Positions 1-51,000 of a stretch of DNA of 64,000 nucleotides are shown piece after piece; positions within the stretch are counted from its first letter, which is position 1; every line of letters begins with the position of its first letter. Position numbers: made by a program. Source of the stretch: Stylophora pistillata (lineage: Eukaryota); assembly GCF_002571385.2 (NCBI RefSeq), contig NW_019217821.1:1020635-1084634 (forward strand), in the 5' to 3' direction.

Positions 1-3000
1 ATCAGAACTTGACACAAATTTGTACCCATCAAAATGACAAATAAAAGCAACAGTTCTGGAACAGTTGATGACACAATCAAATGACTATGAAACCAGTTGC
101 CCTCCCTTGCAAATTTCTTTCTAAAGCACAACCCTCAGCAGGGGAGACTTTTCACATAAGATGTTATGGAGAGAGTACATGAGAATCATCTTACTCAGAA
201 GTCTATGATTCTTTCAAAATGCAGTGCTTTCAATAAGACCTGGCACCCGCCGGAGCTCCGGCGGCTATTCTGTTGCGAGTCGCCGGGTATATTTCACCGC
301 GCTCAAGTCGCAGTCGCCACGCTAAGTCGCAATCAAGTCGCTCTCCGGCGGATGTTGTACCGAGATAGCCACCTATTTCAAATGTTATTGAAAGCACTGA
401 AAATGAGTCATGTTTGAAACTATTTATTTTTCACTATAACATGATTTATTGTCAAGCTCATTTGTACTGGTAATGCATAATAAATGATAAATGCCAAAAG
501 TATTGCACAAAAATTACAAATAATGGGTAAGATCCTTGACAAGTAAAGGTCCATGTATTTTTTTGTGAATAATGATTTTGTTTGGAGGTACATTTGAAAA
601 GGAGCCTCTCCTCTTGAGGACCACGTACATCACAAATTTTGGTCTAGCATTGATTGTTCCAGACAAAAGACCCATATTTCTTGCAGTTAACTCTTTTTTA
701 GGATTGCAAGTAAAGAAGGGATCAAAAATGGTTAAAAAAAAAAAAAAAAAACTTGAAAAAAATTCCTAAATCACCTGGCTGTGAGTAACATTGAAGCTAT
801 AGACAAATAAGAAATATTAAGGAATGAAAAAACAGTTTAATTCATTCCAGAAACTTCATATTCATCACAATATTTAATGCTTTTTTGAAACATTATACAC
901 ATCCTCTTTCAAACAAGTATAATCTTCTTGTACCTCTTCACAAGCCACATCTAGTCTCTTTTGTTTCACATCTTTCATGTGTTGCTTTGCCTACAATTGA
1001 AATTCACAACGTTTGTTAATCACAAAAGGTGTGACAGGATTTACATTTTCTTTACTTTACACATACCAAGAATTCTTACTTTCTCTCATAAGCAAACGAG
1101 CATCAAATAATATATTTTCATCACTTATTCCTTTTCATTTGACAAAACATGGTATTACATTCTCAAATGACTGGAGCCCATTTCTACAAAGAGTTTTAAA
1201 TGGGAACTATATGTGATAAACCACCTGCATGTAAATGGTACTTAAGGAAATCATTGTTTGACTAAAGGGTAGAAAAAAACACTCATAAATTTTTGTGTTA
1301 ATGAAACTAACAAAAACAAATTCGCTATTGAGTTATAATCCTTTTTATTGCATGCAGTTGTTGTGTGCACATGTGTTAGGTCATGTGCAGTTCTGTGAGC
1401 AAACAAGCAAATAGCTGTCATACCAGTAATTTCTATCTGTGAAAAGCAGCATTTTTCCTACCTTCAAGTCTGATTGTACCACTGCTAAATAGTCACAAAG
1501 CATGGTCTCTCTCCTCTTGCGCCACTGTACTCTAGGATCCTCATGCTGTTGTGATCCTACACAAGCAAACAGAGGATAAAAACAAGAGATATTTAACATC
1601 ACGAGACACAATTTGTAAACAAGTTGAATGAAATTGATTCAAAACATTCCTGTTTGTCCTAAATGCCCCCCTCTACAAGCCCAAAAAACCCCCCCCCCCC
1701 CCCACACACACACACAACCCATCTTGCAAAAACCAGTGGACCTGCAAGGTGAAGACCTTTGGAGATTACATAACGTCACAATGTTATATAACTAAAAATT
1801 GCTTCAGGCAAATTATGATCACTATTTCATCTTGCCTAAAGCTATTTTTATGGTATGAATAAAACTAGAGAAATGTATCGAGCAATTTATGGATACAGCT
1901 TTTTAATCAAAAGGTTTGCTTTGTTTGTTTGTTTGTTAAAAACAATCCACTCTGTCACTTTGTTTAATTTGTCATCAGATTTTGACATAAATTAACAAGT
2001 GAACACAAAATTGTGATGCTTGGGATGTTGTGAGAACATAGAGGGTATCTTTAAAAGAGACTTATAGGCTCTTGCAAAGGCCTGATAAGTTTACATGACT
2101 TGTATATTTAAAAGAGTGGAGAAACCCATAATAATAAACACATGTAACAACCATTTTTCAAAGAAAAAACATTAAAAGCTGTGGGTGAAAGCAACATTTC
2201 TCTGCACAAATGATATCAAAATAATTGATGAGCCAAGCACTCAACCAGAACAAATTTGCTGAAGAATGATTGAAATGCAGATCACATCAATTGACGATAA
2301 TAAACAACCTGGTCAGGTTACAGGATGGAAAGACAAAATATCCACAGGACTGGAATTTATTGGTACAGTGCCATGTTGTTAAGTATTTGAGATCCGGATG
2401 TCTAAAGACGTCTAAATCAGAACTTGACACAAATTTGTACCCATCAAAATGACAAATAAAAGCAACAGTTCTGGAACAGTTGATGACACAATCAAATGAC
2501 TATGAAACCAGTTGCCCTCCCTTGCAAATTTCTTTCTAAAGCACAACCCTCAGCAGGGGAGACTTTTCACATAAGATGTTATGGAGAGAGTACATGAGAA
2601 TCATCTTACTCAGAAGTCTATGATTCTTTCAAAATGCAGTGCTTTCAATAAGACCTGGCACCCGCCGGAGCTCCGGCGGCTATTCTGTTGCGAGTCGCCG
2701 GGTATATTTCACCGCGCTCAAGTCGCAGTCGCCACGCTAAGTCGCAATCAAGTCGCTCTCCGGCGGATGTTGTACCGAGATAGCCACCTATTTCAAATGT
2801 TATTGAAAGCACTGAAAATGAGTCATGTTTGAAACTATTTATTTTTCACTATAACATGATTTATTGTCAAGCTCATTTGTACTGGTAATGCATAATAAAT
2901 GATAAATGCCAAAAGTATTGCACAAAAATTACAAATAATGGGTAAGATCCTTGACAAGTAAAGGTCCATGTATTTTTTTGTGAATAATGATTTTGTTTGG

Positions 3001-48000: not shown

Positions 48001-51000
48001 CGGTTTTTCCATCAAGTGATTTAATTAATTCTATACTAGAAACCTATCTATCTAACTACAATAAGAATTTGATAATAACAATTCAAATAAAAGAAATAAA
48101 TAAAAAATTCTGCTTTTCATGGAGGCCGTGTCTAAAATTTACTTAGAATTAAGATCTTACTTTAAACTGTGGCGACTTAATTTAGATTTGAAATCAGTCA
48201 GCGAAGACGCTTGTCTCAGGTCTACAGGTAAGTTGTTCCACAATTGAGCTCCGCTGTACAAAAAAAAACTTCTCTTGAGATAGTCAGTTCGAGGTTGTGG
48301 AAGAACCAATTTGTTTTCGGTATTCCTTAAACGATAAGCACTTACACTGTCACGATATACAAATCTTGATCTCAGATAATCAAGTGTCGTACCATGTAAT
48401 GTTTAATACATGAGAATAGATTTCTGTTCCAATCTTTGATAGTAGAGTTTTCGCCACCCTAGCGCCCGGAACAAATCATACAAATTACTATCATAGCTCG
48501 CTGACATTAGGATGCGAGCTGCCCGATTTTGCAGCCTTTGTAGTTTTTCAGAAAGGCCTTTGTTACAGTTTCCCCACACTACGTTACACTAATCAAAATG
48601 TGGTTGAATAAGGCTATTATTCAGGCCATGGTTCTTTATGTTTCTTGGACTGAGTTGAGATCTTACCCTCCTCGTTTTACCAAGCAACGCGACATTCACT
48701 AATGATCACACTCCAACACAGCGGTCATACGTGGGGCATGCGAAAAGGGGAGCAGTTCTGGCAGCCTGCGCGCCAATTTCCCGCGAAAAATGTCAAAGAA
48801 TCCAATTATGCTCCTGGGTGGAAAGAGGTACCATGAAATCAGACTAGGTCTCGAATCGGGCGTTTCGAATAGGAGACTAGTGCCTAGCCTTTGTCCGTCT
48901 GTCCTCTTTTTGTGAGGATGTTTGTTTTCTTTCGGTTACGCAGGCTGATCTTGTGGAAAGCATGAAGCAGAAAATAGTGGATCTGAGATCGCAAATGGAC
49001 GAAATTAAAGATGAAATCGATGGCAACGAGGCACTGGGGCAGAGAGTCACTAAGGTGGTGGAAGGAAAGACGAGCGCTACCCAGTTTTCTAAGTATCAGC
49101 TTTTTACAGGCGAGCTGAACAAGATTATAGGACTGTTACTGATACTCACACAGAGAATGCACAGATATGAAATGATGCTCCATGATTTGGACATGTCTGA
49201 AGAAGCCGACAGACAACAAAGAGTTAGTAGGATATCCTGAATTTTTACGAATGCAATTTTTTTTTCAGCTATTGCCGATATTTTTATCTTGAGTGGGAGA
49301 AGCTTCAACATGCATTACTTCTGCTCAGACAGGTGTTTATCCTCCCATGTTCGATTCATACGTGCGCGAGTCATGTAAACTGTTCGTTAATTGCTCTTTG
49401 CGTTCGTGCCTGACTCCTTTGCTGGCCGAGACTTTTTTTGTTTATTTTATTTTCACATGTTTCCTCATCGTTTTTTTAGTCGTACCTTGCCTAGAGAGGA
49501 GTCTTCCTTCCCGAACTGCCCTCTAAAAGTATTAAAGGAAGGTTAGCTAGAATGCTAGGCCTTTTCGCTACTTTATAACATTTACAAGAGCGTCTTTTTA
49601 TTGTTCCAGGATGTTTTGCTCGATAAAATCGACAAAGTCACTCTGCAACACGAGGAGGCTTGTAAAATCAAGGAAGTAAACGACAAGCGCGGTGAGGTAG
49701 TGTCCAGGATTTTAGAAAATTGCCTGGAAGAAGAGGAATATGCAGATTTTCAGTACTACATAGACATGAAAACGCAGCTCGCTCTTATGCACGCGGAAAT
49801 TCGGGACAAGGTCAAGATGGGAGAGGAAAGGCTGAACACTTTAAATTCGACAAAGATCGACTGGAGCATTCTTAGTTTGACGTGAGTGTCGCCAAAGTTC
49901 CACCGACTGATGTTGGCTGAAGAGTTTCCGAAGATTGACCGCCTACAAATGTCGGCCGAAAATTGACCAACCAAGGCCATCTGATGTGGTAGGAATTATC
50001 GTTGGGTTTTAAAAGGAATGGTTGCAAGAACAAGACCATTTTGCCGAGTTTCATTTAAGGGAGGTACCGTCACCAGATACATTTTGATGTAGTTTTTTCT
50101 TTTTTCCTTTTTGGCCATAAACGAAGTCGGACCAAGCCATTGGTCTGAAAATTAAAATATTTTCGAACCTTATGGGAAAAAGTCCCGAGTAGTTTGACCA
50201 GGGACATTTTTAAGTAGTGACTAGGCACGAAAACTCGTCAGCGTGGCGAAGTTGTCATATCGTCTTACAATGATTTCGTCGCATCGGGTAGATATATTTT
50301 GGTTTTCGGTAAGCAATTTTCGTGAAAGGAATATTCTGTCTCAATAGGGCGATAAGGTACTTAGAGCTGAAAGCAGTGAGTCACAGCACCCGGGCGAACT
50401 AGTAAACAACTTATACGTGCATATGGTTTATTTGGTCGTGTAGATTTCATTAATATTCACAACTTTCGAGATAAATTTACTAAAAACAAATTATTTTCTT
50501 CTCTGCCGAATGTAAAACCCAAAAATAACAGATAACCTTTTTTTCTCAACGGTTAATACATGCGATTGAGTATTTTTTCTCACCACAAAGTTACCGAATC
50601 ATCAGTCGTAGACCAAAGCAAAAAATATTAAAATTTGTATCATACCATAGGGTTACTTAGAAGCATAGAATTTCTTCATTGGGAAAATCTCTGTTTCATG
50701 TTCTAATTTGCCGAAATATGGCAGCGAATTCTTTAAAATGTGTAACTCAGATGGTGTTATTTCAAAGTAAGCCGCCAATTTGTTCAGTCTTTTCGTGCTG
50801 GGTGTGTTGAAAATACAGACTATAATTTTAGGCATCGTGAAGTTGGTATTTGCCCATTGTAGTAACACAAGTTCAACTCTCTCACCCCCAAAAGTGACGA
50901 AGACTTATTTTTTCCTTACTATTCGGTACAAATTTAAGCAGGAAAAGGACGAAAATAGAGGAGATGTAAACTAGATTATTTGATCGAACACCAAATTCTC

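What the first reader, a model, noticed from the sequence alone, without database searches (positions are those of the whole stretch)
775..49885. KIBRA/WWC - IK - DCTD - Shroom cluster looks like ancient microsynteny shared with vertebrates
Seen: WWC, IK, DCTD and Shroom lie within 50 kb. Known (from memory of the human genome): DCTD neighbours WWC2 on 4q35, SHROOM2 neighbours WWC3 on Xp22, and WWC1, SHROOM1 and IK all lie on 5q. Inference: a WWC-DCTD-Shroom block predates the cnidarian-bilaterian split and was partitioned after vertebrate genome duplications. KIBRA (Hippo input) and Shroom (ROCK/actomyosin recruitment) both act at the apical cortex, so shared regulation is a possible constraint.
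[Added by the scan's program, not by the reader: the finding's places include an assembly gap (unread letters, written N; its length is only estimated) at 22998 to 23091. Whether the letters on both sides are continuous or in frame is not known: test that first.]
Basis: partly seen in the sequence, partly recalled or inferred. Interest (0 to 1): 0.7.

Follow-up and report, generated by a model that had tools for sequence, protein, structure and literature searches.

The report
Coral KIBRA–IK–DCTD–Shroom gene neighbourhood
Five unrelated genes, including KIBRA, DCTD and Shroom, sit side by side in this coral DNA and in other corals and a sea anemone, and parts of the same neighbourhood survive in vertebrates, so it is probably one more piece of very old gene order rather than a new kind of system.

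Summary
The 94-N gap lies in an IK intron. IK exons run in protein order on both sides of it, so there is no sign of a mis-join.

The window is most likely Stylophora pistillata. WWC and DCTD share one in 5 of 5 stony corals seen.

Papers confirm DCTD next to WWC2 (chicken BAC, cattle) and the order SHROOM2-CLDN34-WWC3 (human Xp22.2).

Inherited gene order, split up after the vertebrate genome duplications, is the most economical reading (confidence about 0.6). Three things are missing:
- No invertebrate bilaterian, non-hexacoral cnidarian or outgroup could be examined.
- No real background test was possible.
- IK supports only same-chromosome linkage.

The idea of shared KIBRA-Shroom regulation has no support. 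No held paper's main text reports the block, but supplementary lists could not be read. If new, it is a new member of a known kind. Interest is moderate.

The parts
928..7893 (-). 5' part of WWC/KIBRA. It holds 5 coding exons (7893-7756, 4020-3979, 3638-3567, 1560-1447, 996-928), codons 1 to about 132, which encode WW1 and WW2. The rest of the gene lies left of the window.
   Evidence: Pfam WW. PDB KIBRA 6j68. KIBRA/WWC homologues. tblastn with P0002, P0004 and P0071. ATG at 7893.
9966..10550 (-). EFCAB11-like EF-hand gene, a single-exon ORF of 194 aa. The finding does not mention it.
   Evidence: Pfam EF-hand_7 at 5.2e-14. The exact sequence is in the collection, and a cluster mate is PFX31246.1 'EF-hand calcium-binding domain-containing protein 11 [Stylophora pistillata]'.
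11955..29306 (+). IK / protein Red gene. Coding segments lie at about 11955-12011, 12414-12560, 14507-14590, 14999-15103, 15561-15674, 17611-17694, 17944-18009, 18356-18436, 19145-19234, 19511-19624, 22716-22859, (24546-24620), 25181-25261, 25888-25953, 28736-28825, 28962-29075 and 29274-29306. The exon carrying the start codon was not located.
   Evidence: Pfam RED_N and RED_C. PDB Protein Red. tblastn with six full-length representatives. Stop codon. The exon in brackets rests on a weak match (E 0.24).
22998..23091 (.). Assembly gap of 94 N inside an IK intron.
   Evidence: It starts 138 nt after the GT donor at 22860. Collinear IK exons lie on both sides.
31791..34285 (-). DCTD (dCMP deaminase). 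Its 3 coding exons are 34285-33935, 33212-32997 and 31889-31791. It lies tail to tail with IK, with 2,484 nt between the stop codons.
   Evidence: Pfam dCMP_cyt_deam_1. PDB 2w4l at 6.7e-32. tblastn with Porites, Nematostella and Exaiptasia DCTD. Stop codon.
34286..34844 (.). 559 nt between the DCTD and Shroom start codons, which are transcribed divergently. This is a candidate shared (bidirectional) promoter region.
   Evidence: Start codons at 34285 (-) and 34845 (+). CpG observed/expected is 0.73-1.21 in the windows from 34001 to 35200, against a window median of 0.64. Promoter activity is inferred, not shown.
34845..49885 (+). Shroom gene. Its 9 coding exons are 34845-34979, 37911-38066, 39948-40301, 42724-42882, 43395-43565, 44370-45566, 46868-47905, 48941-49222 and 49607-49885. 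PDZ is at the N-terminus and ASD2 at the C-terminus.
   Evidence: tblastn with P0121 (1246 aa, 94-100% identity per exon) and with Actinia tenebrosa Shroom3-like P0127. Pfam ASD2 and PDZ. PDB Shroom2 5f4y.

Best explanation
The region is an ordinary chromosomal neighbourhood of five unrelated single-copy genes in a pocilloporid coral, most likely Stylophora pistillata. Their order is KIBRA/WWC(-), EFCAB11-like(-), IK/RED(+), DCTD(-), Shroom(+), packed into about 49 kb. The close linkage of WWC, DCTD and Shroom is inherited. It is shared by other stony corals and by a sea anemone. In vertebrates it survives as two fragments, DCTD next to WWC2 and SHROOM2 next to WWC3. That is the pattern expected if one ancestral block was copied by the two vertebrate genome duplications and each copy then lost different genes.

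Shown: the gene identities, their order and the continuity across the gap.
Taken from papers: the vertebrate adjacencies.
Inferred: common descent of the arrangement. Retention is most likely passive (slow rearrangement), with at most local help from close promoter sharing, such as DCTD/Shroom head to head at 559 nt.
For: - Gene identities come from exon-by-exon Pfam and PDB searches and from homologue searches.
- Exon maps are collinear with homologues, including across the gap.
- In P. damicornis the locus tags are pdam_00004328 (KIBRA) and pdam_00004331 (DCTD). In P. meandrina the accessions are CAH3045840 and CAH3045843. Both leave room for exactly two genes between, as in the window.
- In A. 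cervicornis KAK2551299 (Shroom part) and KAK2551303 (kibra) leave three.
- In A. tenebrosa Shroom is XP_031554954-956 and KIBRA is XP_031554962-963.
- In the shark Heptranchias perlo, WWC2-like and DCTD share a chromosome length of 141,859,166.
- The vertebrate adjacencies are in print.
- The rough chance estimate is 1e-4 to 2e-3 per locus.
Against: - Only two major lineages were sampled: Hexacorallia and vertebrates. The published criterion for a conserved ancient pair asks for four (PMC3514665, passages).
- Contig identity is inferred from equal length alone.
- Accession distance is a loose proxy. In S. pistillata the XP numbers of KIBRA and Shroom differ by 57 although only 3 genes separate them. 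In P. damicornis the RMX numbers differ by 41 although the locus tags differ by 3.
- In Porites lobata KIBRA and DCTD are 21 accession numbers apart, so the block may be looser there.
- In 3 vertebrates only unsuitable records were in the lists and the contig lengths differ. For Varanus and Heterodontus only the KIBRA/WWC1 paralogue was listed. For Scyliorhinus torazame DCTD was seen only on an older assembly.
- At 1e-4 to 2e-3 per locus, a few such coincidences would arise genome-wide under scrambling within a linkage group, and this locus was picked after the fact.
- Gene orientation differs from what I recall for human DCTD and WWC2.
- EFCAB11 is not linked to these genes in human (recalled).
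Confidence: 0.6

Rival explanations
1. Coincidence on a conserved chromosome. WWC, DCTD, Shroom and IK belong to one ancestral linkage group (macrosynteny). Their tight clustering arose separately in hexacorals, and the two vertebrate adjacencies arose by chance.
For: - IK, WWC1 and SHROOM1 are only on the same human chromosome arm (the position of IK is recalled).
- The simulation gives 1e-4 to 2e-3 per locus under random order within a linkage group. Over thousands of loci that yields a few chance cases.
- The locus was chosen after the fact.
- No third phylum was examined.
Against: - Two different coral neighbours of WWC are next to two different WWC paralogues in vertebrates.
- The cluster is stable across stony corals and an anemone.
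- Irimia et al. report nearly 600 truly conserved pairs, against 0.015 per genome when gene order is randomised under their criteria (PMC3514665, abstract and passages). Real blocks therefore far outnumber chance ones.
Confidence: 0.25
2. A constrained regulatory block. The genes are held together because enhancers for KIBRA and/or Shroom lie within or beside the housekeeping genes (IK, DCTD, EFCAB11) acting as bystanders, or because KIBRA and Shroom share regulation at the apical cortex.
For: - DCTD and Shroom start codons are 559 nt apart and the genes are divergent.
- The EFCAB11-like gene and IK are also divergent, with no more than about 1.4 kb between them.
- Head-to-head pairs with intergenic regions under 1 kb are enriched among conserved ancient pairs (PMC3514665, passage).
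Against: - In vertebrates, DCTD stayed with WWC2 and SHROOM2 stayed with WWC3. The DCTD/Shroom promoter pair and any KIBRA-Shroom unit were therefore broken without loss of the genes.
- WWC1 has neither gene among its immediate neighbours (recalled).
- No conserved non-coding sequence, expression or chromatin data could be examined.
- KIBRA and Shroom are not transcription factors of the usual trans-dev type (established knowledge).
Confidence: 0.12
3. Assembly artefact. The genes were brought together by a wrong scaffold join at one of the gaps.
For: - The window holds one 94-N gap and two single-N positions.
- A palindromic 100%-identical duplication sits around the N at 38767.
- A perfect 669-nt repeat occurs at 1 and 2416. 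These are signs of local assembly trouble.
Against: - Each N lies in an intron of a gene whose exons are in protein order on both sides: IK for 17074 and for 22998-23091, and Shroom for 38767.
- Independent assemblies of Pocillopora, Acropora and Actinia place the same genes on one contig.
Confidence: 0.02

Closest known systems
Conserved ancestral microsyntenic pairs (CAMPs) of Irimia et al. 2012 (PMC3514665; abstract and passages read)
   Same: Unrelated genes are kept within a few genes of each other in cnidarians and vertebrates. The block includes head-to-head pairs with very short intergenic regions.
   Different: [quoted passage not shown] Only hexacorals and vertebrates are documented here. 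Their main text has 0 occurrences of WWC, KIBRA, Shroom or DCTD. Their supplementary pair list could not be read, so these pairs may already be listed.
Vertebrate neighbourhoods DCTD-WWC2 (chicken GGA4, cattle BTA27) and SHROOM2-CLDN34-WWC3 (human Xp22.2)
   Same: The same gene families are immediate or near-immediate neighbours.
   Different: Each vertebrate copy keeps only one of the two coral neighbours. IK and EFCAB11 are not in these neighbourhoods. Distances are tens to hundreds of kb (recalled), against 27 kb from the WWC start codon to the Shroom start codon in the window. Orientations were not compared.
Bidirectional-promoter gene pairs such as HSPD1-HSPE1 (named in PMC3514665, passage)
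   Same: DCTD and Shroom are divergent, with 559 nt between their start codons.
   Different: Shared promoter activity and conservation of this orientation in other species were not tested. The pair is not adjacent in vertebrates.
Genomic regulatory blocks (developmental gene plus bystander genes)
   Same: Housekeeping genes (IK, DCTD) lie between genes for cell-polarity and morphogenesis proteins.
   Different: No conserved non-coding elements or enhancers were shown, and the flanking genes are not transcription factors.

Membership tests
WWC/KIBRA | Two N-terminal WW domains in tandem | tested here: met
   WW1 matches Pfam at 3.8e-14. WW2 matches Pfam WW only weakly (E 0.0056, below the curated cut-off) and the domain is split by an intron. 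The best PDB hit of the WW2 exon is KIBRA residues 55-79. Homologues are named KIBRA/WWC1-3.
WWC/KIBRA | Internal C2 domain and C-terminal region | not testable with these tools
   These lie outside the window, left of base 1. The 1142-aa cluster representative P0002, identical over the WW1 exon, carries the precomputed Pfam domains C2 (PF00168) and PF25802.
IK / protein Red | RED_N and RED_C regions in that order | tested here: met
   RED_N profile positions 27-234 are covered in four exons. RED_C positions 12-96 are covered in three exons; the first is a weak match below Pfam's cut-off. PDB Protein Red matches at 4.3e-17.
DCTD (dCMP deaminase) | Zinc-binding HAE and PCxxC motifs of the cytidine/dCMP deaminase fold, with closest similarity to dCMP deaminases | tested here: met
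   Exon 2 aligns over 72 of 72 residues to chain 2w4l 'deoxycytidylate deaminase' at 6.7e-32, with both motifs aligned. Homologues are named dCMP deaminase.
Shroom | C-terminal ASD2 domain | tested here: met
   ASD2 profile positions 120-287 of 289 are covered in the last two exons. PDB matches are Shroom2 5f4y and 5f5p and Drosophila Shroom 3thf.
Shroom | N-terminal PDZ domain | tested here: met
   Exon 2 matches PDZ_6 at 1.1e-06. Precomputed PDZ (PF00595) is present in 6 of the 7 homologues.
Shroom | ASD1 actin-binding domain (present in some vertebrate members only; recalled) | tested here: not met
   The three large middle exons gave no credible Pfam match at E<=0.1. I do not treat ASD1 as required for membership.
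Conserved ancient microsyntenic pair (Irimia et al. 2012) | [quoted passage not shown] | tested here: met
   In the window, WWC-DCTD has 2 intervening genes, WWC-Shroom has 3 and DCTD-Shroom has 0. In vertebrates, DCTD-WWC2 has no intervening protein-coding gene in the chicken BAC and SHROOM2-WWC3 has one, CLDN34.
Conserved ancient microsyntenic pair (Irimia et al. 2012) | Linked in at least four separate lineages | tested here: inconclusive
   Only Hexacorallia and vertebrates could be documented. No data on other phyla were reachable.
Conserved ancient microsyntenic pair (Irimia et al. 2012) | Exceeds randomised gene order | tested here: inconclusive
   Only a toy simulation was run. No real gene maps were available.
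Genomic regulatory block | Conserved non-coding elements or enhancers of one gene lying within its neighbours | not testable with these tools
   No other cnidarian genomic DNA, chromatin data or expression data were available.

The most novel reading that the evidence does not exclude
The KIBRA-(EFCAB11-IK-DCTD)-Shroom block is a regulatory unit more than 600 million years old. In this reading the housekeeping genes are bystanders carrying control elements for two apical-cortex genes, so Hippo input and actomyosin constriction were wired together in cis in the cnidarian-bilaterian ancestor. The DCTD/Shroom shared promoter would be a remnant of that wiring.
Probability: 0.1. Interest if true: 0.7.

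Novelty: new member of a known kind. Interest (0 to 1): 0.35.

Why it matters
If the block is truly ancestral, it adds a clean example of an ancient neighbourhood split up among the vertebrate WWC paralogons. The coral arrangement then serves as the unduplicated reference. It would also give a concrete locus at which to ask whether such blocks are kept by regulation or simply not yet broken. It does not open a new class of system, because hundreds of such pairs are already described (PMC3514665).

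Tried and rejected
Gene order in other animals could therefore not be read directly.
- As a substitute I used the 'longest_contig' lengths and the accession numbers returned by the protein tools.
- Accession distance proved unreliable as a measure of adjacency. 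S. pistillata XP numbers are 57 apart for genes 3 genes apart, and P. damicornis RMX numbers are 41 apart although the locus tags are 3 apart. I therefore rest the claims on shared contig length.
- The Shroom search found only 7 proteins, all cnidarian (7 of 199 candidates). Vertebrate SHROOM-WWC co-location could not be tested from data.
- The representative search for IK returned mostly exon-sized fragments. I used 6 of the 150 listed, the longest ones (533-613 aa), as rulers.
- The WWC-family evolution paper I had in mind (DOI 10.1093/molbev/msu115) is not held.
- Literature searches for the block found nothing relevant: WWC1+WWC2+WWC3+synteny gave 2 papers; three of WWC/KIBRA/Shroom/DCTD gave 4; microsynteny+Shroom gave 2; microsynteny+KIBRA gave 1; Nematostella+Shroom+Kibra gave 0; the SHROOM/WWC/ohnolog search gave 0.
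- A mis-join at the gap was considered and rejected (see the rival explanations).
- Spliced models were not joined. Exons were searched one by one, and splice-phase compatibility was read from the DNA only.

Full report
**What the window is.** The window is AT-rich (GC about 0.30-0.46 in 2-kb windows) and intron-rich animal DNA. It is not human, and no contig that I took for human was met. It holds one 94-N gap (22998-23091) and single N's at 17074 and 38767. Two proteins encoded whole in the window were found by exact look-up on a contig of 1,144,035 bp: the EF-hand ORF at 9969-10550(-) and the rhodopsin-type receptor at 52547-53563(-). The window is therefore most likely S. pistillata.

**Method.** Spliced genes were searched exon by exon. 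The step of joining exons into a model and searching the joined sequence was left out, so exon bounds are approximate where they rest on tblastn ends.

**Gene identities.**
- WWC/KIBRA is on the minus strand. The exon at 7765-7899 matches Pfam WW at 3.8e-14. In PDB it matches KIBRA 6j68 over residues 6-42, although proteins with several WW domains (Itch, NEDD4L) score higher in total. The WW2 exon's best PDB hit is KIBRA residues 55-79. A search among longer proteins gave 780 of 780 candidates at E<=0.001. Of the 120 listed, every functional name is KIBRA or WWC1-3, and the Acropora digitifera protein is 93% identical. tblastn places residues 1-132 in five exons between 7893 and 928. The remaining roughly 1000 codons lie left of the window.
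- An EFCAB11-like gene at 9966-10550(-) was not in the finding.
- IK/RED is on the plus strand. RED_N exons cover profile positions 27-60, 62-99, 169-200 and 199-234. RED_C exons cover 12-29 (a weak match, below Pfam's cut-off), 30-58 and 59-96. PDB Protein Red matches at 4.3e-17.
- DCTD is on the minus strand with three exons, 34285-31791. PDB 2w4l matches at 6.7e-32 with HAE and PCxxC aligned.
- Shroom is on the plus strand with nine exons, 34845-49885. PDZ is at the N-terminus and ASD2 at the C-terminus, and PDB Shroom2 matches.

**Layout.**
- WWC and the EFCAB11-like gene point left.
- IK points right, so the EFCAB11-like gene and IK are divergent, with no more than about 1.4 kb between them.
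- IK and DCTD are convergent, with 2,484 nt between their stop codons.
- DCTD and Shroom are divergent, with 559 nt between their start codons.
- From the leftmost WWC exon to the Shroom stop codon is 48,958 nt.
- CpG observed/expected is raised at the WWC 5' end and around the DCTD/Shroom start region.

**The gap.** The IK exon ending at 22859 is followed by a GTATGT donor, and the N run begins 138 nt later. Using six full-length representatives as rulers (6 of the 150 listed), exons left of the gap align to residues up to about 362 of P0295. Exons right of it align to residues 376-392 (weak, E 0.24), 399-424, 430-446, 447-479 and 476-514. The Pfam profile positions give the same order independently. 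A path in which every junction falls between codons exists without any letter from the gap: 22859 to 24546-24620 to 25187. Other acceptor choices are possible, and an exon for the roughly 13 unaligned residues could be hidden. The single N's lie in introns of IK and Shroom, whose exons are collinear on both sides. The scaffold is therefore not mis-joined at these points as far as coding order can show.

**Linkage in other cnidarians.** With no eukaryotic genome collection to read, I compared the contig lengths that the protein tools report.
- The locus tags pdam_00004328 and pdam_00004331, and the accessions CAH3045840 and CAH3045843, leave exactly two genes between KIBRA and DCTD, as in the window.
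- KAK2551299 and KAK2551303 in A. cervicornis leave three between Shroom and kibra.
- Against tight linkage, Porites lobata KIBRA and DCTD are 21 accession numbers apart.
- Accession distance is in any case loose, as shown by 57 XP numbers for 3 genes in S. pistillata and by RMX numbers 41 apart in P. damicornis.

**Linkage in vertebrates.**
- In the shark Heptranchias perlo, WWC2-like and DCTD share a chromosome length of 141,859,166.
- In three other vertebrates the lengths differ and the records were unsuitable. For Varanus and Heterodontus only the KIBRA/WWC1 paralogue was listed. For Scyliorhinus torazame DCTD was seen only on an older assembly.
- From papers (passages read): a single chicken BAC overlaps DCTD and WWC2. 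In cattle both map to BTA27 at 14 Mb. Human Xp22.2 deletions list GPR143, SHROOM2, CLDN34, WWC3, CLCN4, MID1 in order. WWC1 is at 5q34. SHROOM1 is listed in the IL5/IRF1/KIF3A locus.
- The positions of IK, SHROOM3 and SHROOM4 are recalled only.

**Interpretation.** Two different coral neighbours of WWC are neighbours of two different vertebrate WWC paralogues. One ancestral WWC-DCTD-Shroom neighbourhood, copied by the vertebrate duplications and then thinned by gene loss, explains this with the fewest events. My toy simulation puts the per-locus chance at 1.2e-4 to 1.9e-3 under random order within a linkage group. That is not negligible genome-wide for a locus picked after the fact. However, Irimia et al. 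found nearly 600 conserved pairs, against 0.015 when gene order was randomised, so real blocks greatly outnumber chance ones. Their criterion of four lineages is not met by what I could document. IK contributes only same-chromosome linkage, and EFCAB11 contributes none (recalled). The regulatory reading is untested. It is weakened by the fact that vertebrates separated DCTD from Shroom, and WWC1 from both.

**Novelty.** The main text of Irimia et al. has 0 occurrences of WWC, KIBRA, Shroom or DCTD. Six searches found no paper on this block. Supplementary lists are closed and may already contain these pairs. If unlisted, this is a new member of a known kind.

Noticed in passing
window 1-750 and 2416-3165: A direct repeat inside WWC introns. 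The first 669 bases are identical, and the copies diverge after about 750. It is either a very recent duplication or an assembly duplicate. It flanks WWC exons 4-5 without disturbing their order.
   Followed up: partly
window 38290-39306: Two 251-nt-period arrays, each internally 100% identical, are perfect reverse complements of each other on either side of the single N at 38767, in Shroom intron 2. This looks like a foldback or a scaffolding artefact.
   Followed up: partly
window 20620-21226 and 22005-22592: A long inverted repeat (arms of 221-344 nt, 88-94% complementary) in the IK intron just upstream of the gap. Its ORFs have no Pfam match. It is probably two copies of a mobile element in opposite orientation.
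   Followed up: partly
window 22890-22997: The last roughly 100 bases before the gap read as similar peptides on both strands, which suggests a hairpin-like repeat. That may be why the assembly broke there.
   Followed up: no
window 13042-13431 (-): A 129-aa ORF in an IK intron with no Pfam match. It may be a fragment of a repeat element.
   Followed up: partly
window 52544-53563 (-): A single-exon rhodopsin-family receptor gene (7tm_1, 1.4e-39) just downstream of Shroom. All 15 listed cluster mates (of 20 members) are unnamed.
   Followed up: partly
window 57928-61222 (+): A multi-exon gene for a secreted-type protein with a weak PAN-like match, two EGF-like exons and a Laminin_G_3/pentraxin-like exon.
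   Followed up: partly
window 62371-62631 (+): An ORF whose hydrophobic stretch looks like the start of another receptor. It has no Pfam match.
   Followed up: no
proteins P0129, P0130: Some database 'DCTD' proteins from unnamed coral contigs align straight through the first intron of the window's DCTD. They are read-through ORF predictions, not spliced proteins.
   Followed up: no
human Xp22.2 (PMC11675438): A claudin gene (CLDN34) lies between SHROOM2 and WWC3. I recall claudin genes beside WWC2 as well, which would be a further shared feature of the paralogous regions.
   Followed up: no
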